Below are positions 3,001 to 35,834 of a stretch of 52,990 nucleotides of DNA, piece by piece. The notes beneath the pieces were generated by a model. The model did not search any database. It worked only from the letters and a program-made list of their open reading frames with translations, and was not told where the DNA came from. Source of the DNA: a virus; the IMG/VR virus record IMGVR_UViG_3300045988_169541, positions 1 to 52,990 of that record; one strand, given 5' to 3'. Position 1 is the first letter of the stretch; each line of letters begins with the position of its first letter. Both the position numbers and the translations under genes were made by a program.

Positions 3001-3976
3001 TAGTCGTTATACGGCTCCAGATGGGTCATCTGTTGCTCCTACTGCTTCGGTAATCAGGCCTGTTCTTACGAATGCAACAAAGGAAGAACTTAATGCTGAA
3101 ATAAATATAACAAAAGGATTGATCGAAAATAAAGTATCTCTAGATGTCTATAATGAAAATGATCAATTAATAAAATCAGATATTAGCAATTTACAAGTTA
3201 GTTACAACCAAATTTCTTCTACAGTATCTAAAATTATAAATGGTACCCAAGAAATATCTGGTGTTGTAACACAAAGTAATTTCGTTACAATTTTTTCTTC
3301 AAATAAAAATGCATTAGGGCAAGAAGTTATTGAATCTATTAATGTTGGCGGAGGAGGCGTTACAATTGATGCAAGTAGGATTAATCTTAATGGAGCTATT
3401 AGTGCAAACGGGAATGTTCAGATTACAACAGATGGAAAACTTATTGCAGTTAACGGACAGTTTACAGGAAAGATTACAGCGACAGAAGGAGAAATTGCCG
3501 GACTGAAATTAAGCAATAATGGATTGAGATCATCTGATTTCAATGAGAGTTCGAAAGTAGGCTCTTGTTATGCTAAAGATGGTTTTTCTGTATATGCATC
3601 AGGGAATGGTGTACTTACCCCTTCAACAGGTGGAATGCAAGCCGGAATAATAACAGCAGTAGGAGATTTTATAAGTCATATAACTGGATTGGAAATAATT
3701 GCCAAGGAAACATCGTATAATAATGGATCATCTTCAATAGTTACTGCCTTAAGAATACAAGCTGAGAACAGATATTACGGTACTCCATTTGATCCACCTC
3801 TTGCGATAGAGGTAGTTTCTGGAGATGTATTATTCGGTGGTAAAATGACAGTTAATAATACATCTATCTTTAGAGGTCAAATATATTTAAATCTTAATAA
3901 CATACCAAATATTTCAGGGGCTTCGAATTATTACCTATGTATAAATAGATCAACCGGACAATTAAGTTACAGATAA
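2..3976 (+). CDS. Tail fiber / receptor-binding protein, distal part; the 5' part is 52190..52905 across the circular junction
   Basis: The frame is open from nt 2, with no stop before the track's TTG at 59. It is in phase with 52190..52990 through the repeat. It has three tandem jelly-roll-like modules, a heptad-rich stretch (AEIKTITKTLTEIKAENGE..) and a G/N/T-rich distal end. It follows the tape measure and tail protein. Confidence 0.8.
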   Translation: MVLEDGEDNEDTGDGIIEYLRAVDEKKKIIRKSSENDLRVYLEDTGIDTAKMIRELELIGELSMNYTIEIDDNLSGSTNKTTLQSLIQFISKDFVTNNKFKEYIDQPVRTTDDVKFNSVVAKESIKTGKVTAEEVVSENFTSGLLGVGHRLWNGVLEVSELIVRKTMHVFEIIVQKITSVNGSMLTTPGGGIRISEVEELEDGYKCFFNNDDGTIPNPFVVGDQALHQVFTGKNISRYWRLVTEVGDNHFVLSKTDCESGSDIPKVEDEIIQFGNRTDRSRQNAVLTTSYGLDAPYTAYYSNVNSYSLEGKEDVREGNLRGINDPDFGQLSGSGFYGKNVYLKGIFRLLSGKTVEESIGDVQSNLDNLQVGETNLLDNSNKGWKNSYYLTATIYLGDYKPKEGEECTIVIKGKLGTDKTYFRIFNSGGSVVLTGLFRNMFNADNIATRTFKWKLEQSSVVADNKFINIYAYESSVVAESEIEWVKLVLGNKTSLLWTPSINDQRQIAIDEAGKVVDGIQIGSQNLISKKMMLKWNEKNKNIAVWGQDADGVYLRINEGLLHKNWAGSNEIANPVFDLQFKPDTQYVLSVEWKLAAVQNYDGLAFRIFYTDGTAEWHGLTGTIITKTIARLITKAGKTVQKISASYGSSKANTLIYNISLIEGNKPLQGFPVAEEDQVGANNVNLAEGTKGPFTVEGGTNTYAYKALYIPVIKPNTVYYVNAQNIEFLSGNISKCDFILFDKSIKSYLTTTYHHLYDKNGGIIITRSDFEAQEGYLLCYAGESGHTAGNSVRFTEVMLVEGFLPAPVWAPSFSEQQAEIKTITKTLTEIKAENGEISLRVNEVSERVEEAKQEAIDEAKEYTTIQTYRETDIDLRAEKWDQDTYYPVTIKLSNSETRIEVVSPLNGDFGIPKWSTHELGFSMNCVWRSNGSGWGANVVNRIIEVFECKFTKEIPDTTPVQYILPAGWIRQLTSSSEELIYLRGGGRYLFKIGNNCVAVVHDSRYTAPDGSSVAPTASVIRPVLTNATKEELNAEINITKGLIENKVSLDVYNENDQLIKSDISNLQVSYNQISSTVSKIINGTQEISGVVTQSNFVTIFSSNKNALGQEVIESINVGGGGVTIDASRINLNGAISANGNVQITTDGKLIAVNGQFTGKITATEGEIAGLKLSNNGLRSSDFNESSKVGSCYAKDGFSVYASGNGVLTPSTGGMQAGIITAVGDFISHITGLEIIAKETSYNNGSSSIVTALRIQAENRYYGTPFDPPLAIEVVSGDVLFGGKMTVNNTSIFRGQIYLNLNNIPNISGASNYYLCINRSTGQLSYR

Positions 3977-3988
3977 ATTATAAAAAAC

Positions 3989-4282
3989 ATGGAAATTAAC
4001 TATTTTATTTCAGCAAAAGCAACGGCAACGGTACAGAATATAAATGTATCGCTGAGTGCAGAGTATCAAAAAGAGCAAGCACCGGAAGTTATCTCCGTAG
4101 TAGCAAACGGATACTTGGACGACGGGAAGAAATTCATGAATGCAACCCTTAAATACAATCCTAAGTCCGAGGATTTCAATTCGATTAACGGATCAAATGT
4201 TGACTTGGGTATTATTCAGGGGATTGTTCCATTAATTACGGAATTTTATAGAAAGATTACTGAAACATTCACTAACTACTAA
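3989..4282 (+). CDS. Hypothetical protein (97 aa) downstream of the fiber gene
   Basis: Tightly packed ATG ORF 13 nt after the fiber stop. No motif recognised. Position is compatible with a fiber accessory or chaperone protein. Confidence 0.55.
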   Translation: MEINYFISAKATATVQNINVSLSAEYQKEQAPEVISVVANGYLDDGKKFMNATLKYNPKSEDFNSINGSNVDLGIIQGIVPLITEFYRKITETFTNY

Positions 4283-4286
4283 CAAA

Positions 4287-4577
4287 ATGAAATATAGTTT
4301 TGACGTAAAAGATGTATCAGCAATTGATTTGTTAGGTAATAATTATATCCAATTGCTGGAAGAGAATCAAAATAAAGGCATTCATCAACTTGTCGGAAAT
4401 GCCGTGTATGTGTGCACAAACACAATTGAAATGCATGAAATTGCCAAAAAGATATTCAACGGGGAAGCTGTGGATATGAATGAAAATGAGACAGAATTAT
4501 TCAAAGCCTCAATAATGGATTCAACCTGGCATGTTTTTATTAAAAACGCTATTATCTCTGCAATCAAAAACAAATAA
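4287..4577 (+). CDS. Hypothetical protein (96 aa)
   Basis: ATG ORF 5 nt after the previous stop, followed by a GC-rich hairpin. No motif recognised. Confidence 0.55.
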   Translation: MKYSFDVKDVSAIDLLGNNYIQLLEENQNKGIHQLVGNAVYVCTNTIEMHEIAKKIFNGEAVDMNENETELFKASIMDSTWHVFIKNAIISAIKNK

Positions 4578-4580
4578 AAA

Positions 4581-4602
4581 AGAGGCCGCCCTCGCGACCT
4601 CT
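4581..4602 (+). terminator. GC-rich hairpin after the fiber operon (terminator candidate)
   Basis: agagg-ccgccctcgcg-acctct: 5 bp plus 3 bp with one mismatch and a 4-nt loop. An A-tract precedes it and only a weak T-tract follows. Confidence 0.45.
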
Positions 4603-4700
4603 ATAAATATTTCCCAAGCAACCCCAAGTCAATCTTATGTTGCAAATTTACAAAGTTTTTTTTGAGAATACAAAAGAATAATTTAGAAATATAAAACAAT

Positions 4701-5159
4701 ATGAACAAAGAGGAATGGAGAAGGTTAATAACCGAAACGCTGAAAGAAACAGGCTTGTACTCTGACAATGCAAGAGATCTTATCATGGGGACGTTTGCTC
4801 AGGAAAGCAATTTTAAGTACACCCGGCAAATTGGCGGTGGTCCGGCTTTAGGATATGGGCAGATGGAGCCGGCAACCTTCAATGATATTGTGGTTAATTT
4901 TCTCCGGCATAAACCGGAACTAATGGGGAAAGTAATGAAAGCATCCGGTGTTGTCACTTTGGAGCCTGAGATGCTTGTAGATAACAAAAAGCTGATGATC
5001 TGTATGGCCCGCATACATTATTTGCGTGTAAAGGAGGCATTACCTTCGAATAAGGATGTTTGGGCGATGGGTGAATACTGGAAACAATATTACAATACGC
5101 CATTAGGCAGAGGGACCGTAAAGGAGTTTGTCGAGAACTATAAAAAATATTGTTTATAA
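4701..5159 (+). CDS. Endolysin, lytic transglycosylase (SLT-like)
   Basis: FAQESNF (catalytic Glu-Ser) and LGYGQM motifs typical of SLT domains. It is the first gene of a lysin-holin-spanin cluster. Confidence 0.75.
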   Translation: MNKEEWRRLITETLKETGLYSDNARDLIMGTFAQESNFKYTRQIGGGPALGYGQMEPATFNDIVVNFLRHKPELMGKVMKASGVVTLEPEMLVDNKKLMICMARIHYLRVKEALPSNKDVWAMGEYWKQYYNTPLGRGTVKEFVENYKKYCL

Positions 5160-28036: not shown

Positions 28037-28052
28037 AATGTTGATTTTTGTG

Positions 28053-28076
28053 GCCTACATCAGGATTCGAACCTGA
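28053..28076 (-). other. Isolated tRNA-like fragment (T-arm plus 3' acceptor strand only)
   Basis: Minus strand tcagg-ttcgaat-cctga followed by tgtaggc. No matching 5' acceptor, D arm or anticodon arm within about 100 nt. Confidence 0.5.
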
Positions 28077-28133
28077 ATTTTAAGTCTGATAGCCACCGGA
28101 TAATATCTTCGGCGGTTTTATTGGAGATTGTTT

Positions 28134-28529: not shown

Positions 28530-29173
28530 GCTGTATTTTTTAAGTCTCCGAACATAGTCCAGTATTTAAATGCGAGTTCCATACACTTGTGATGGCCGGA
28601 TTCCCATAATTCATCTCCTCTTTTTATGAATACCTTGAAGACGCGGAAGTTTTCTTTGGAAATTCCGATTAAGACGTCTTTCTCGGAGCCTGCTATATTC
28701 ATGTAGAAGAATCTTTGCCTGTCGTAGTCGAATTGCCTTACAGCGGATTCAAATTGTTCCTGTGTCGTCGCGGAGGTGCTTTTTATATCGCCTCCCCATC
28801 CCATTGACGGCATCCACAAGTCCCATTTGCATCGGACGGGCAGTGTAAAAGGGATGTCGTAGTCGAATTTCTGACAGGGATTAATCATGACTTTCTGTGT
28901 GTCTGATAGTGGAAGTATCCGGCTGGCAAACTCATCGCGCATGAATGCCTTTTTCATTTCTTCTGCTTTTTTGAAATCACCTTCTGTCATTTGTTCGCCG
29001 GCACAAGTCAGTTTGAAATAGTTGACTTTTTCCGGTTCTGTAATCATGTGATCGATTAGGTTTCCAAATTTTGCATGAACGGGGTCGATTTCCATTCCTC
29101 CGTAGAGCTGTCTTTTTAATTCAGACAGGTCGGAGTTGGATATTTCCGACCTGTCATAGTATGGGTCTTTCAT
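28526..29173 (-). CDS. PD-(D/E)XK exonuclease-like protein (recombination partner of the annealase)
   Basis: CKWDLW...WGGDIKSTSATTQEQF...YDRQRFFY: a D-x-K-(S/T) core as in Cas4/YqaJ/DUF3799-type nucleases. It lies in the RecT operon. Confidence 0.6.
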   Translation of the reverse strand: MKDPYYDRSEISNSDLSELKRQLYGGMEIDPVHAKFGNLIDHMITEPEKVNYFKLTCAGEQMTEGDFKKAEEMKKAFMRDEFASRILPLSDTQKVMINPCQKFDYDIPFTLPVRCKWDLWMPSMGWGGDIKSTSATTQEQFESAVRQFDYDRQRFFYMNIAGSEKDVLIGISKENFRVFKVFIKRGDELWESGHHKCMELAFKYWTMFGDLKNTA

Positions 29174-30339
29174 TTTGCCGTAACGACTTCTTTGTAAGTA
29201 ATAAAGTTTGACGTGATGATTTCTCCATCCTTGTTTGCGATATCCTCGCAGAATTTCTTCATCTGTGCGATGGATTTCTTTTCAATCTTTTCGTTCGGGA
29301 GATTCTTTCCTTCACGCTCGAACCAGAATATGAATATCTGTCCGTATCCGGCAGGATTGCTTACTTCGATGGAAAGCGTTTTCTTTACATTCGCCGCAGG
29401 GGCAGAATAATTTTGGTCGAATAGGGTATTGAGGGATGCTTCAGTTTTCTCTGCCTCGATGGATGTCTGTTGTTTCTGTGTGAAGTTCAACAGTTCTTGT
29501 CTTTTTTCTTCCGCTTCCCGTTTTGCCCTTTCTTCCGCTTCTTTCGCAAGCCGTTCTTTTTCCGCGGCATTTGCTTGCGCGATCTCTAACAATTCTTGTT
29601 TCTTTGAATCAACGCGATCAAGGTAGTACCGGATTTTTTCGGTGATTTTTTCATTGTATTCCAGTTCATTTTTGGCAGATTTGGAAGAAGCTATTTCTTC
29701 ATAGATTGCGATCTCTTCTTCTTTTGTAATGTAATTCCTGTATGGATATGAGAAAGTGGCCGGTTTGTATTCGGATGAGAAGTTTTTCAATTCATCTTTT
29801 TTTAGCTCGCAGTTTTGCAGCGTGATGGAGTTGAATATTTCTTTAAGCGAATCGTATGCAAGGCTTAATGTGTTTACCAGGTCGTTGGTAAAGGCTTGTT
29901 TGAAATAAGCACGCATTTCGATGCGCTCCTGTTCTGTGGCAGCCTTGATACGCCGAGACTCTTCCTCTTTTGCGGCGATTTCCGCGATATGCCGGGCAAA
30001 TGCGTTTCTGAAATTTTGTATTGCCTGTATTTCTTCCCCTGTTTTCAGTTCGTTTTCCAGTTCGGTGAAATGTTTCCGGATTTGGTCGAATGCCTGTGTG
30101 ATTGGTTTCCGGCGGTCGGTCATGGCCGAAATGGTCTTGCTTATCTTTCCGAGGAATGTTTTACACTCTTCGTCTAGGAACCGGACTTCCGGAGTGTCTG
30201 AGATAGGGGTGTTTTCTATTTTAGCGAGCAGGATTTTTGCGACTTCTTTTGCTTTTTCATTACTTGCAATGTTTTGCGCAATGATGTCTTTTGCCTGTAA
30301 TAATGCTTCCTGTGTTGTTGAGAGTGCTGTTGTTTCCAT
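29170..30339 (-). CDS. Long coiled-coil protein, unknown function (389 aa)
   Basis: Glu/Lys-rich heptad-like sequence throughout. It sits between the annealase and the exonuclease. Confidence 0.55.
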   Translation of the reverse strand: METTALSTTQEALLQAKDIIAQNIASNEKAKEVAKILLAKIENTPISDTPEVRFLDEECKTFLGKISKTISAMTDRRKPITQAFDQIRKHFTELENELKTGEEIQAIQNFRNAFARHIAEIAAKEEESRRIKAATEQERIEMRAYFKQAFTNDLVNTLSLAYDSLKEIFNSITLQNCELKKDELKNFSSEYKPATFSYPYRNYITKEEEIAIYEEIASSKSAKNELEYNEKITEKIRYYLDRVDSKKQELLEIAQANAAEKERLAKEAEERAKREAEEKRQELLNFTQKQQTSIEAEKTEASLNTLFDQNYSAPAANVKKTLSIEVSNPAGYGQIFIFWFEREGKNLPNEKIEKKSIAQMKKFCEDIANKDGEIITSNFITYKEVVTAK

Positions 30340-30341
30340 GA

Positions 30342-31301
30342 TTAAAAGGGTTCTTCTGGGTTTTCTACTATGTTTACACCGCCCTGTTGCTTGGCGATTT
30401 CCTGTACATCTGTCTCTTCGGCTTCTTCTTCGGTTTCTTTTTGCGGGACTTGGTTGTATACTGGCTCATCCAACCCATAGTCGGAGGCCTGGACTTGTTC
30501 GTCTTGCTGTAAAGCGGAGAATTGTCCTAACCTTAATTTCGGAAATGTCTTGAAAGCGTGCTTGATTACTTTCGCTTCAAGGAATCCGGTGTCGATTTGA
30601 CCTTCATTTGAATGGTAGAGGGCATTGGCGTCTCCATATACATTCCCGTCTTTGTCTTTCCGTTGATTTTTCTTTAAGGAATATCCTTTCAGACGGTCGA
30701 TGTCTTCTGGAAGCATCCAAAAGAAGTCAAAGGAACGATCGGGGCGGGTCAGCTTGATAAAAGCTCCGATGATTGTTTTGCTTTGCCGTGGAATGGCTGC
30801 CGAATAGACTACCACTTTCTGTCCGGTTTCGGTTACCTTGGGCTTAAATTCATCCCCCTCGAATACGATTACAGGACGGTCGGCATATAATAGCTGTCCA
30901 GCTTGGATTCTTAAATCGAGCTCTCCATATGGAGAAATTTCAATGGACATCCGTTGTTCCCATGTTTGTTTTTCTTTTGTTCCTACATTCACGGAACCGG
31001 GGATGATGTAAATAAGGGGCCGGGATGCGTTTTCAAGGGTAAGTCCCATGCTTGCGATGTCAAGGAGTACTCCATATGTGGAGAAACCTGTACATTTTGC
31101 TAGGTTTGGGGAGGCTTGTATGATTCTCTGTAGGTTGTATTTTTCTTTTTCAAAGAATAATTCGCCCTGCTCAGAGTTGTGGATGTTATTGTAGAGTGTA
31201 ACGAATCGCTCTCTTACTCTCGTATCCTCTAAAATCTGAAACGGAGACATGGATTTAAGCTCCGTGATCGTCAGCTTTTTTGTTTCTGAATTATTTTCCA
31301 T
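30342..31301 (-). CDS. RecT-like single-strand annealing protein (319 aa from ATG 31301)
   Basis: LLDIASMGLTLENASRPLIYIIPG...ISPYGELDLRIQAGQL resembles the RecT core. Acidic tail ending ENPEEPF. The track's 52-codon N-terminal extension runs through structured, tRNA-like DNA. Confidence 0.6.
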   Translation of the reverse strand: MENNSETKKLTITELKSMSPFQILEDTRVRERFVTLYNNIHNSEQGELFFEKEKYNLQRIIQASPNLAKCTGFSTYGVLLDIASMGLTLENASRPLIYIIPGSVNVGTKEKQTWEQRMSIEISPYGELDLRIQAGQLLYADRPVIVFEGDEFKPKVTETGQKVVVYSAAIPRQSKTIIGAFIKLTRPDRSFDFFWMLPEDIDRLKGYSLKKNQRKDKDGNVYGDANALYHSNEGQIDTGFLEAKVIKHAFKTFPKLRLGQFSALQQDEQVQASDYGLDEPVYNQVPQKETEEEAEETDVQEIAKQQGGVNIVENPEEPF

Positions 31302-31327
31302 ACTTTTGTTTTGTTGTTTGAAATGTG

Positions 31328-31445
31328 ACGGGTAAGAGGAATCGAACCTCTTTCTAAGTACTCCAGTACAACCCGTTGCTGGCTTAATGCGCCTTTGACA
31401 CGCGACTTTCGCCACTACCGGAGTATTGCCCGGTAGTTCACCAGC
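31328..31445 (-). ncRNA. GC-rich structured element with a tRNA-like 3' domain (unclassified)
   Basis: Minus-strand helices: 31441..31445/31378..31382 (5 bp), 31430..31436/31415..31421 (7 bp), gcga-aag-tcgc, gtac-tgga-gtac. T-arm agagg-ttcgatt-cctct (31335..31351). Acceptor-like acgggtt/tacccgt pairs 6 of 7. Confidence 0.4.
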
Positions 31446-31508
31446 CCGCAGCGACAAACTGCGTGTTTTTTATTGTCTGTCAACATGTCAAAGAGCTTGG
31501 AGTTTTTT

Positions 31509-31544
31509 GTAAGGCCGTCACGTCATCAAACTAAACGGCCTTAC
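31509..31544. other. 10-bp perfect hairpin next to tRNA-Thr
   Basis: gtaaggccgt / acggccttac with a 16-nt loop. T-tracts flank it on the plus strand only, so it is terminator-like for antisense transcription. Confidence 0.5.
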
Positions 31545-31550
31545 TTTTGA

Positions 31551-31622
31551 GCCTACTGTCTGGTTCGAACGGATGACCTTCGGAGTACAAAACCGATGCT
31601 CTACCAACTGAGCTAAGTAGGC
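31551..31622 (-). tRNA. tRNA-Thr(UGU)-like, 72 nt, with a weak T-stem
   Basis: GCCTACT-TA-GCTC-AGTTGGTA-GAGC-A-TCGGT-TTTGTAC-TCCGA-AGGTC-ATCCG-TTCGAAC-CAGAC-AGTAGGC. Perfect acceptor and D arms. One U-U at 31:39. Only 3 of 5 T-stem pairs. Confidence 0.55.
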
Positions 31623-31649
31623 GGGTTGCCCGTCTTCCCGGGCTGCCAG

Positions 31650-31970
31650 TTATTTTTTCTTTTTGTCTTCCTCTTTTAATTCAACCTCTGATTCCAAATC
31701 GTCTTTGATTGCCTTCACGGCTTCAATTGTTTCTTTTGCCCGGCGGATGATGTCTTTTTGCTCCAACATCTGATTGATTGTTGTCGTGTAGTTGACTTCC
31801 TTTTCTCCCAATTTTTTACAAAGTTCCTCGTATCGGATTTCGGCTTCCGTCATTTGTCTTTCTGCGTCATCGCTCGCGGATTCTAAAGAACGTTTAACAT
31901 CTCTTTCCCTCAGATCGAATAATCTGTCGATAAAATTAGCTCCGGATAAAATTGCTTTCAGTTTTTTCAT
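31650..31970 (-). CDS. Coiled-coil hypothetical protein (106 aa)
   Basis: ATGA overlap with the upstream gene. No motif recognised. Confidence 0.5.
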   Translation of the reverse strand: MKKLKAILSGANFIDRLFDLRERDVKRSLESASDDAERQMTEAEIRYEELCKKLGEKEVNYTTTINQMLEQKDIIRRAKETIEAVKAIKDDLESEVELKEEDKKKK

Positions 31971-32401: not shown

Positions 32402-32458
32402 CTTTGCCGGAGCAACCTATATATATGGCCACAGTTACAATTGGCTGCCCCGGACTGA

Positions 32459-35802: not shown

Positions 35803-35810
35803 TATCTTTG
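35803..35810 (+). promoter_or_regulatory. -7 box TATCTTTG, rightward promoter of the XRE-type regulator
   Basis: Matches TAnnTTTG 25 nt upstream of ATG 35835. Divergent from the promoter at 35701..35708. Confidence 0.45.
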
Positions 35811-35834
35811 TCGATAATATTAAATATAACATAT

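What the first reader, a model, noticed from the sequence alone, without database searches (positions are those of the whole stretch)
31328..31445. GC-rich ~120-nt structured element with a tRNA-like 3' domain, masked by an ORF-track extension of the RecT-like gene
Directly upstream of the RecT-like ATG (31301) the DNA becomes visibly GC-rich and folds, on the minus strand, into two parts.
- A cloverleaf-like 5' domain: 5-bp closing helix 31441..31445/31378..31382, 7-bp helix 31430..31436/31415..31421 with an 8-nt loop, and gcga-aag-tcgc.
- A mini tRNA-like 3' domain: acgggtt ... gtac-tgga-gtac ... a canonical T-arm agagg-TTCGATT-cctct ... tacccgt.

It cannot be folded as a normal tRNA, because there is no D arm or 7-nt anticodon loop. 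The track ORF 30342..31457 translates through it, which is almost certainly wrong. It sits in a tRNA cluster.

Candidate identities, all inference: a tRNA-derived decoy or processing element, a degenerate tRNA, or a new phage ncRNA.
Basis: seen in the sequence. Interest (0 to 1): 0.65.

Follow-up and report, generated by a model that had tools for sequence, protein, structure and literature searches.

The report
Phage leader RNA with tRNA-like tail
A gut Bacteroidales phage carries, just upstream of its recombination genes, a real and conserved ~140-nt folded RNA: a four-armed domain followed by a tRNA mimic that lacks the anticodon arm. The mimic probably lets the host's tRNA-trimming enzymes cut the transcript.

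Summary
Minus strand 31463..31326 encodes a structured RNA with three parts:
- a 5' hairpin;
- a four-way junction (P1-P4);
- a tRNA "top-half" mimic: acceptor stem, 4-bp D-like hairpin with a GG loop, and T arm UUCGAUU, with no anticodon arm.

ARAGORN and Rfam do not call it.

About 60 human-gut viral and metagenome contigs carry it, in two diverged types. Across 13 distinct sequences, 95% of pair cells are paired, against 38-47% in slid controls, and 14 pairs change on both sides.

The junction domain is 90% identical between types. The adjacent RecT-like gene is 69.5% identical and the tRNA-like part 52%.

The downstream gene is swapped among loci (RecT-like, Erf-like, three others), so the ORF extension to 31457 is not coding.

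Related phages carry further mini acceptor/T-arm modules just upstream of ORF starts. Unrelated viral DNA (820 kb) has essentially none.

Best reading (inferred, ~0.45): its own promoter drives a small RNA, then a tRNA-like RNase P / RNase Z processing signal, then the recombination mRNA. This is analogous to MALAT1-mascRNA.

It is not a member of the tRNA, tmRNA, YrlA, mascRNA or DUF2693 RNA families. The function of the junction domain is unknown.

The parts
31466..31493 (-). Promoter-like block CTTTG-N16-TAAAAAA. It lies inside the conserved TCTTTGACAT motif (31485-31494).
   Evidence: The same pattern occurs at only one other place in the window, 35806-35831(+), in front of an HTH (Cro/CI-like) gene. 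GTTCTTTGA[CA]AT precedes every variant RNA at this locus in relatives. It also precedes DUF2693 RNAs. Promoter function is inferred; no transcription start was mapped.
31447..31463 (-). 5' hairpin CGCAG-UUUGUCG-CUGCG.
   Evidence: It covaries: CACAG/CUGUG in L015 and CCGC/GCGG in type B. Three of its 5 pairs change on both sides.
31378..31445 (-). Four-way junction domain. P1 is 31441-31445/31378-31382. P2 is 31429-31437/31414-31422 (loop CAAUAC). P3 is GGC-GAAA-GUC at 31404-31413. P4 is GCGU-GUCAAAG-GCGC at 31389-31403. The junction strand AUUAAG is 31383-31388.
   Evidence: RNAalifold recovers all four helices independently. 63 of 70 nt are identical between types A and B, and 5 of the 7 differences keep pairing. 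The GNRA loop varies between GAAA and GGAA.
31326..31376 (-). Anticodon-less tRNA-like module. Acceptor is 31370-31376/31328-31334. The D-like hairpin GUAC-UGGA-GUAC is 31358-31369. The linker is 31352-31357. The T arm AGAGG-UUCGAUU-CCUCU is 31335-31351. It ends with C-A at 31327-31326.
   Evidence: Type B has entirely different stem sequences with the same architecture. L153 has 3 compensatory pairs in the D-like hairpin. L110 3781-3835 is a third version. Model R2 scores 72 bits here, against one 12.9-bit hit in 820 kb of unrelated viral DNA.
31302..31325 (-). A-rich unstructured leader before the start codon.
   Evidence: The ...AAACA(A/C)AAA(G)NAUGGAAA pattern is conserved across loci even where the downstream gene differs. 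There is no terminator between the RNA and the ATG.
30342..31301 (-). RecT-like ssDNA-annealing protein gene. The true start is the ATG at 31301, not the TTG at 31457.
   Evidence: It matches phrog_148 at E = 4e-7. Homologues start at MENNS.... In other loci the same upstream RNA is followed by unrelated genes that start at the same ATG.
31509..31544 (-). Upstream hairpin GUAAGGCCGU...ACGGCCUUAC between tRNA-Thr and the promoter-like block.
   Evidence: Read from the sequence. The stem is conserved and the loop is variable among loci. A role as terminator or stabiliser is inferred.

Best explanation
The region encodes a non-coding RNA that forms the 5' end of the recombination-operon transcript.

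**Proposed order of events**
1. Transcription starts at a promoter-like block (TCTTTGACAT...TAAAAAA).
2. The RNA begins with a protective 5' hairpin.
3. It folds into a sequence-constrained four-way junction (P1-P4).
4. It then folds into a tRNA 'top-half' mimic: a 7-bp acceptor stacked on a 5-bp T stem, a T loop UUCGAUU, and a mini D hairpin whose GG can form the elbow. There is no anticodon arm.

**Proposed mechanism (inferred)**
- This module presents the determinants that RNase P, RNase Z and the CCA-adding enzyme read on tRNAs.
- The host tRNA-processing machinery would cut 5' of A31376 and just after the discriminator at about 31327.
- That would release the hairpin plus four-way-junction RNA (~90 nt) as a stable small RNA whose 3' end is closed by helix P1.
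- It would also release a ~50-nt tRNA-like RNA.
- The downstream ssDNA-annealing-protein mRNA would be left with a defined A-rich leader.

**Status of each step**
- Shown: the structure, its conservation, its non-coding nature and its position.
- Inferred: the transcription start, the cleavages, and any trans function of the four-way junction.
For: **Structure**
- 13 distinct homologues give 95% paired cells, against 38-47% in slid controls. 14 pairs change on both sides.
- RNAalifold recovers the helices independently.

**tRNA-likeness**
- The T loop and its G-C closing pair are conserved.
- The D-like loop always contains GG (UGGA, CGGG, CGGGA, UGGAA, UGGU).
- Acceptor plus T stem make a 12-bp stack in types A, B and D1.
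- The type-B module gives a weak match to the mascRNA-menRNA model (22 bits, E = 0.37).

**Shared flanks with real tRNAs**
- The two real tRNAs of this phage lack an encoded CCA.
- They have the same N73-C-A 3' flank as the mimic.
- Each has a hairpin 4-5 nt upstream, comparable to P1 sitting just before the mimic.

**Placement**
- Related phages carry further mini acceptor/T-arm modules with a YGGUU linker and a 3' N-CA. Most end 13-40 nt upstream of an ATG.
- 820 kb of unrelated viral DNA gives one 12.9-bit hit.
- There is no terminator or RBS-sequestering helix between the RNA and the ATG.

**Selection**
- The four-way junction is 90% identical between types. The RecT-like gene is 69.5% identical and the tRNA-like module 52%.
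- So the junction is constrained in sequence, while the tRNA-like module is constrained only in shape.

**Background knowledge (mine, not tested here)**
- Acceptor/T-arm minihelices are sufficient substrates for bacterial RNase P, RNase Z and CCA-adding enzyme.
- A 7-bp acceptor stem made M. smegmatis YrlA an RNase P substrate (PMC4201824).
Against: - There are no transcript data: no mapped 5' or 3' ends and no cleavage assay.
- The promoter assignment rests on a motif that occurs only twice in the window. That count is not significant on its own: 25 of 100 shuffles give at least 2 matches.
- Covariation comes mainly from two clades plus a few variants, so independent events are few.
- In type A the innermost acceptor pair is a U-U mismatch. 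L150 has an A-A mismatch at the base of the T stem.
- The second candidate module in this window (28046-28098) is weak (11.4 bits).
- Nothing explains why the four-way junction is so strongly conserved.
Confidence: 0.45

Rival explanations
1. tRNA-mimic decoy or sponge. The anticodon-less tRNA-like module, with or without the four-way junction, accumulates. It titrates or hijacks a host factor that reads the tRNA elbow or acceptor end. Candidates are an acceptor-targeting defence toxin, the CCA-adding enzyme, a modification enzyme or EF-Tu.
For: - The module keeps exactly the tRNA top-half features.
- It is apparently driven by its own promoter.
- Several different tRNA-like RNAs lacking anticodon arms occur in these phages, including one that replaces tRNA-Thr in type-B loci.
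Against: - The lack of an anticodon arm excludes the best-known tRNA-targeting defences, the anticodon nucleases (my knowledge).
- Most mini modules sit directly in front of ORF starts inside operons. A decoy does not need that placement.
- No candidate partner was identified.
Confidence: 0.15
2. Cis-acting leader. The four-way junction acts on the transcribing RNA polymerase or the ribosome, either as processive antitermination of the HK022 put type or as a structural insulator or translation enhancer for the A-rich, SD-less start region. Any cleavage would be incidental.
For: - It lies immediately downstream of a promoter-like block, at the head of a minus-strand gene block that runs ~20 kb to about 11939; that this is one operon was not tested.
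- The junction is under strong sequence constraint, as expected for a specific macromolecular contact.
- DUF2693 RNA, which shares the 5' block and layout, sits right after a cro-like gene, where lambdoid nut/put sites lie.
Against: - There is no expression platform.
- The four-way junction is absent in close relatives that keep the same downstream genes (L110, L117, L218). There only a mini tRNA-like module or other RNAs remain.
- No internal terminators were demonstrated.
Confidence: 0.15
3. Non-functional relic: a decayed tRNA gene, or a tRNA 3' fragment left by integration (an attP/attB core).
For: It has a T arm and an acceptor 3' strand, and it lies near tRNA genes.
Against: - Both acceptor strands are present and covary.
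- The 23-mer spanning the T arm and acceptor has no exact match in 185,579 representative genomes.
- No integrase was found among the ORFs scanned.
- The 5' domain is more conserved than the adjacent gene.
Confidence: 0.03
4. N-terminal coding extension of the RecT-like protein (ORF 30342..31457).
For: The frame is open from the TTG at 31457.
Against: - The same upstream sequence precedes five unrelated first genes.
- 1-2 nt indels occur within it (L015, type B).
- Substitutions are pair-preserving rather than codon-patterned.
Confidence: 0.01

Closest known systems
MALAT1 / MEN-beta with mascRNA / menRNA (Rfam RF01684), vertebrates
   Same: - A tRNA-like structure with a reduced anticodon region is embedded in a longer transcript.
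- There RNase P cleavage at its 5' side creates the mature, structure-protected 3' end of the upstream ncRNA, and RNase Z plus CCA addition release the small tRNA-like RNA (my knowledge).
- The layout here is the same: a structured RNA closed by helix P1, followed by the tRNA-like module.
- The type-B module is the best Rfam match to this model (22 bits).
   Different: - The score is far below the gathering threshold (42.5), and the window's own copy gives no match at E <= 10.
- This is a bacterial virus, and the module is followed by an mRNA.
- There is no triple-helix element.
- Cleavage was not shown here.
- The resemblance is an analogy, not homology.
DUF2693 RNA motif (Rfam RF02956), Bacteroidota phages
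   Same: - It shares the conserved unpaired 5' block UCUUUGACAU.
- It then has a 5' hairpin with a 7-nt loop, then GUGA, then a multi-stem cloverleaf-like domain ending in CAC, about 26 nt before an ATG.
- The host phylum and the early-region location are the same.
   Different: - The score is only 14.8 bits against a gathering score of 81.3, and only the 5' block aligns.
- Model R1 finds nothing in 37 DUF2693 loci.
- The junction topologies differ.
- DUF2693 RNA has no canonical T arm / acceptor module (no R2 hits in any of the 37 DUF2693-RNA loci).
C4 antisense RNA of phages P1/P7 (my knowledge; listed among RNase P substrates in the papers found)
   Same: A small regulatory RNA is encoded in the leader of a phage operon and is cut out of the same transcript by host RNase P.
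   Different: - C4 has no canonical T arm.
- It acts by base pairing to the downstream mRNA.
- No convincing complementarity to the leader was found here.
Bacterial Y RNAs (YrlA) (PMC4201824)
   Same: - They are bacterial and phage ncRNAs with a tRNA-like domain (T arm, D arm, acceptor-like stem) and no anticodon function.
- M. smegmatis YrlA is cut by RNase P and receives CCA.
   Different: - YrlA lies within 4 kb of an rsr (Ro60/TROVE) gene.
- Its 5' and 3' ends form the Ro-binding stem, and its acceptor-like stem is capped by a loop.
- Here no TROVE protein was found in the ORFs scanned, the acceptor ends are open, and no terminal stem encloses the module.
tRNA punctuation of polycistronic transcripts (mitochondria) and the tRNA-like / pre-miRNA units (TMERs) of murine gammaherpesvirus 68 (my knowledge)
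   Same: tRNA or tRNA-like folds are used as cleavage signals for RNase P / RNase Z, to separate functional RNAs from one primary transcript.
   Different: The organisms and polymerases differ. Those elements are full tRNAs or nearly complete tRNA-like folds. Processing was not shown here.

Membership tests
tRNA (Rfam RF00005 / ARAGORN) | Acceptor stem stacked on a T arm with a UUCRANY loop closed by G-C | tested here: met
   Acceptor 31370-31376/31328-31334. T arm AGAGG-UUCGAUU-CCUCU at 31335-31351. Both covary.
tRNA (Rfam RF00005 / ARAGORN) | Anticodon arm with a 7-nt loop between the D arm and the T arm | tested here: not met
   Only a 6-nt linker (31352-31357) joins the D-like hairpin and the T arm. 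It is 4-5 nt in type B.
tRNA (Rfam RF00005 / ARAGORN) | Detected by ARAGORN, or by the Rfam tRNA model at 29 bits or more | tested here: not met
   There is no call at 31326-31465, even at E <= 10 in a 501-nt search.
tmRNA | tRNA-like domain formed by the 5' and 3' ends, plus a tag reading frame (standard or permuted) | tested here: not met
   ARAGORN finds no tmRNA. Both acceptor strands lie within 50 nt. The third acceptor pair is G-C, not G-U.
mascRNA-menRNA (RF01684) | Model score at or above the gathering threshold of 42.5 bits | tested here: not met
   The window copy gives no hit at E <= 10. The type-B copy scores 22 bits, E = 0.37.
mascRNA-menRNA (RF01684) | Cleaved by RNase P at its 5' side and RNase Z at its 3' side, forming the 3' end of the upstream ncRNA | not testable with these tools
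   This needs end mapping or enzyme assays.
DUF2693 RNA (RF02956) | Model score at or above the gathering threshold of 81.3 bits | tested here: not met
   14.8 bits, and only the 5' block aligns. Genuine members score 136-167 bits.
DUF2693 RNA (RF02956) | Conserved 5' block UCUUUGACAU followed by a hairpin with a 7-nt loop | tested here: met
   31485-31494 and 31447-31463.
YrlA / bacterial Y RNA | Encoded within about 4 kb of, and on the same strand as, an rsr (Ro60, TROVE-domain) gene | tested here: not met
   Pfam scans of 28 ORFs of the window, including all neighbours within 4 kb, found no TROVE domain. The criterion comes from PMC4201824.
YrlA / bacterial Y RNA | Terminal stem formed by the 5' and 3' ends that carries the GNCGAAN0-1G Ro-binding motif | tested here: inconclusive
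   GGCGAAAG occurs, but as the P3 hairpin loop rather than in a terminal stem. It reads GGCGGAAG in about half of the type-A copies.
RNase P / RNase Z minihelix substrates (functional class) | About 12 bp of coaxial acceptor + T stem, an intact T loop, and a single-stranded 3' tail | tested here: met
   7 + 5 bp in types A, B and D1. The T loop is UUCGAYU. The 3' tail N-C-A is shared with the phage's real tRNAs.
RNase P / RNase Z minihelix substrates (functional class) | Actual cleavage at the predicted sites | not testable with these tools
   This needs in vitro cleavage or in vivo end mapping.

The most novel reading that the evidence does not exclude
- A group of Bacteroidales phages (hosts Odoribacteraceae / Marinifilaceae) uses a family of anticodon-less tRNA top-half mimics as punctuation marks inside its operons.
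- At the head of the recombination module, one such mark releases a new, sequence-constrained four-way-junction RNA. That RNA would act in trans as a small RNA or as the RNA part of an RNP.
- This would be a bacterial-virus counterpart of MALAT1-mascRNA processing.
Probability: 0.3. Interest if true: 0.75.

Novelty: new variant of a known kind. Interest (0 to 1): 0.62.

Why it matters
- tRNA-like folds used as RNA-processing signals are known from mitochondria, vertebrate lncRNAs and a herpesvirus. An organised use in phage operons has not, to my knowledge, been described, and the paper searches found nothing.
- If confirmed, it would show how SD-less Bacteroidales phages shape mRNA ends with host tRNA enzymes.
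- It would add a new structured RNA, the four-way junction, that is more conserved than the neighbouring protein gene and has an unknown partner.
- It would explain why gene callers extend the first recombination gene over the RNA.
- It also links to the uncharacterised DUF2693 RNA through a shared promoter-like block and layout.

Tried and rejected
- **GenBank phages:** no DNA similarity for the element or for 8 kb around it.
- **attP / tRNA-fragment idea:** the exact 23-mer is absent from representative genomes, and no integrase was found among the ORFs scanned.
- **Hammerhead-like reading** of CUGGUGA...GAAAGUC: rejected. It has G where the invariant A6 should be, it has extra nucleotides before GAAA, and no ribozyme family matches at E <= 10.
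- **Promoter-block pattern scan of IMG/VR:** returned mostly chance matches in coding DNA and only one new homologue, L032.
- **The acceptor/T-loop pattern:** added only ordinary tRNAs.
- **RecT-based locus expansion:** IMG/VR gave no new loci. The genome collection gave three.
- **Weinberg 2017:** neither the text nor held supplements mention DUF2693.
- **Loop-loop or loop-junction pseudoknots** (CAAUAC with AUUAAG): no covariation, so dropped.
- **Strict script scan for acceptor/T-arm modules in the window:** found only tRNA-Cys, the element itself and two probable chance hits in coding DNA.
- **5S rRNA, SRP, RNase P RNA or a permuted tRNA:** considered and dropped, for lack of any Rfam signal and because both acceptor strands are in normal order.

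Full report
**What is in the sequence**

Read on the minus strand, the DNA between tRNA-Thr (31549-31622) and the RecT-like ATG (31301) contains, in order:
- a hairpin (31509-31544);
- the block TCTTTGACAT...TAAAAAA (31466-31494);
- a 5-bp hairpin (31447-31463);
- a four-way junction (31378-31445);
- a tRNA-like module (31326-31376);
- an A-rich 24-nt leader.

GC rises to 0.51-0.55 here, against 0.36-0.42 in the flanks. ARAGORN and Rfam at gathering thresholds call only tRNA-Thr and tRNA-Cys. A permissive Rfam scan of 31200-31700 adds only a 14.8-bit partial match to DUF2693 RNA. The minimum-free-energy fold of the single sequence is not unusually stable (z = -1.6). The case therefore rests on comparison with other sequences.

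**Homologues**

- GenBank phages have nothing similar.
- Exact and degenerate pattern scans found the element in about 35 IMG/VR contigs, about 29 human-gut metagenome contigs and two Butyricimonas MAG contigs.
- They fall into type A (the window) and type B (e.g. L116), plus variants L015, L032, L131, L150 and L153.
- A covariance model built on 14 distinct sequences (R1) scores 137-170 bits on 13 of them.
- It finds nothing in 37 loci that carry genuine DUF2693 RNAs.

**Structure**

On the model-guided alignment of 13 distinct sequences, 95.0% of pair cells are standard pairs. Sliding the 3' partners by 1-3 columns gives 38-47%. Fourteen of 42 pairs show changes on both sides, and no shuffle out of 500 reaches the observed covariation score. 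RNAalifold, run without my structure, recovers the 5' hairpin, P1, P2, P3, P4, the acceptor stem and the T arm.

The alignment is fitted to the model, and most variation is between two clades, so independent events are few. They are still numerous in four places:
- the 5' hairpin: CGCAG/CUGCG, CACAG/CUGUG and CCGC/GCGG;
- the acceptor: ACGGGU/ACCCGU against ACAACCC/GGGUUGU;
- the small hairpin: GUAC/GUAC, GCGU/ACGC and GUGC/GCAC;
- the T stem: AGAGG/CCUCU against CCGGGG/CCCCGG.

The first is GGC-GAAA-GUC, whose loop stays GNRA in the GGAA variants. The second is GCGU-GUCAAAG-GCGC, whose G-C pair becomes A-U in L015, L131 and type B, and whose U-G pair becomes C-G.

**It is not coding**

The mechanical ORF 30342..31457 runs through the RNA. 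Three observations rule out translation upstream of 31301:
- the same upstream sequence is followed in other loci by an Erf-like gene, two PHROG families of unknown function and a 388-aa coiled-coil protein, all starting at the same ATG;
- 1-2 nt indels occur within it;
- substitutions preserve base pairs.

**How tRNA-like is the 3' module?**

It has:
- a 7-position acceptor stem directly stacked on a 5-bp T stem;
- a T loop UUCGAYU closed by G-C;
- a 4-bp hairpin whose 4-5-nt loop always contains GG, as the D loop does;
- a 4-7-nt linker where the anticodon arm and variable loop would be.

A third version with unrelated stem sequences sits in L110 at 3781-3835. A model of the module alone (R2) scores 63-72 bits on these copies. 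It also picks up simpler acceptor/T-arm modules in related (pro)phages:
- L110 4967-5017;
- L116 6884-6933;
- L117 8957-9006;
- L006 8704-8750 and 13508-13562;
- L012 5337-5385;
- L220 1459-1507 and 2202-2261.

These have a YGGUU-containing linker instead of the hairpin and a 3' N-C-A. Most end 13-40 nt before an ATG. In 820 kb of unrelated viral contigs R2 gives one 12.9-bit hit. In the window itself only one further, weak candidate exists (28046-28098, 11.4 bits, upstream of the NinG/Rap gene).

The phage's two real tRNAs lack an encoded CCA and share the N73-C-A flank. Each is preceded at 4-5 nt by a stable hairpin. This mirrors helix P1 lying two nucleotides before the mimic.

**Constraint**

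Between the window and L116:

| Region | Identity |
|---|---|
| Four-way junction | 63/70 (90%) |
| RecT-like gene DNA | 69.5% |
| 389-aa gene | 61% |
| tRNA-like module | 52% |
| 5' hairpin | 57% |

Five of the seven differences in the junction preserve pairing. The junction is therefore constrained in sequence, which points to a specific partner or tertiary fold. The tRNA-like module is constrained only in shape.

**Context**

- The element heads a minus-strand block that encodes a RecT-like protein, a 389-aa protein with no family match, a PDDEXK exonuclease, NinG/Rap, a helicase, DnaB and a replication initiator.
- The window is a near-complete siphovirus-type genome with terminase, portal and an HK97-type capsid.
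- No integrase was seen.
- The pattern CTTTG-N14-19-TAWAAMA occurs only here and in front of an HTH gene in the divergent regulatory region. This is suggestive but not significant.
- In relatives found through the RecT-like protein (Odoribacter and Marinifilaceae MAGs), GTTCTTTGA[CA]AT follows a terminator and precedes different RNAs before the same start region. L218 has a mini tRNA-like module, and L220 has another RNA with its own terminator.
- The site is therefore a hot spot for promoter-driven ncRNAs.

**Mechanism**

I commit to the processing model. The module presents the tRNA top half that RNase P, RNase Z and the CCA-adding enzyme recognise. It would be cut out of the transcript. That would leave the hairpin plus four-way-junction RNA with a helix-closed 3' end, and the recombination mRNA with a defined A-rich leader.

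Four points support this: the preserved determinants, the 3' flank shared with real tRNAs, the placement of sister modules before ORF starts, and the absence of any expression platform. All cleavage steps are inferred. I put this model at about 0.45.

The rivals are:
- a tRNA-mimic decoy (0.15);
- a cis-acting antitermination or translation leader (0.15);
- a relic tRNA or attP fragment (0.03; no genomic match to the 23-mer);
- a coding extension (0.01).

**Comparison with known families**

- The closest functional analogue is MALAT1/MEN-beta with mascRNA.
- The closest sequence relative, sharing only the 5' block and the general layout, is DUF2693 RNA. Genuine copies of that RNA sit after a cro-like gene next to a CI-like repressor.
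- YrlA Y RNAs are tRNA mimics too. They require an adjacent rsr gene and a terminal Ro-binding stem (PMC4201824), and neither is present here.
- Membership of tRNA, tmRNA, mascRNA, DUF2693 RNA and YrlA fails on tested defining features.

**Verdict**

This is a real, conserved, previously uncatalogued phage ncRNA. It combines a new four-way-junction domain with an anticodon-less tRNA mimic. It is a new variant of the known idea of tRNA-like processing signals.

Noticed in passing
window 28046-28098 (-): A weak second acceptor/T-arm candidate (GUGGCU...UCAGG-UUCGAAU-CCUGA...GGCCAC). It lies in the 98-nt gap before the NinG/Rap gene and ends 13 nt before its ATG. R2 scores it only 11.4 bits. Stronger modules occur downstream of the 389-aa gene homologue in L116 (6884-6933) and L117 (8957-9006); whether that is the same genomic position was not checked.
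   Followed up: partly
window 31628-31643 (-) and 32407-32453 (-): Each real phage tRNA is preceded at 4-5 nt by a stable hairpin, right after the stop codon of the upstream ORF. For tRNA-Thr it is GCCCG-GGAAGA-CGGGC. For tRNA-Cys it is an 11-bp stem. Both tRNAs lack an encoded CCA and are followed by U-C-A. The hairpins could stabilise the upstream mRNA 3' end after RNase P cleavage.
   Followed up: no
L125 1596-1697; L117 4640-4755; L218 1-70; L220 2202-2261: In type-B and related loci the place of tRNA-Thr is taken by a hairpin plus a tRNA-like RNA (GGUGGG...GCUU-GGAG-AAGC...AAGGUG-UUCGAGU-CACCUU-CCCACC). It has a pyrimidine-rich linker instead of an anticodon arm and is followed by a terminator. 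ARAGORN and Rfam are silent on it.
   Followed up: partly
L123 6154-6310 (-): The Rfam tRNA model matches (31.2 bits) over 157 nt, with a 93-nt insertion in the anticodon region of an otherwise good tRNA (acceptor, D arm and T arm intact). It may be an intron-containing or otherwise interrupted phage tRNA.
   Followed up: no
window 31393-31399 versus 31487-31493 (-): The invariant P4 loop GUCAAAG is perfectly complementary to CUUUGAC in the conserved upstream block (6 of 7 in type B). In DUF2693 RNA the 5' hairpin loop UGCAAAG is likewise complementary to CUUUG. If the block is transcribed this could be a long-range pairing. If it is the -33 promoter element, the match is coincidence.
   Followed up: no
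L117 4790-4990; L218 100-262; L220 2310-2500: At the same locus, after the same GTTCTTTGA[CA]AT block, other phages carry different, unclassified RNAs. L117 has ACGGGUU-GAUG-GUGA-CAUC...ACCCCGU plus CCCCGG...CCGGGG-ACA. L220 has a ~190-nt RNA with its own terminator.
   Followed up: no
L165 5769-7060: A genuine DUF2693 RNA (166.8 bits) lies directly after a small cro-like ORF that diverges from a CI/LexA-like repressor gene. It ends 26 nt before the next ATG. This is the position where lambdoid phages have nutR.
   Followed up: partly
window 29170-30339 (-): The 389-aa protein between the RecT-like gene and the PDDEXK exonuclease has no Pfam or PHROG match. In L129 a 388-aa coiled-coil protein (phrog_6347) is the first gene after the RNA instead.
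   Followed up: no
L110 3540-5040: A close relative (389-aa protein 99% identical) lacks the four-way junction. It has two extra ORFs (3918-4899) flanked by two separate tRNA-like modules (3781-3835 and 4967-5017). This suggests such modules mark the boundaries of exchangeable gene cassettes.
   Followed up: partly
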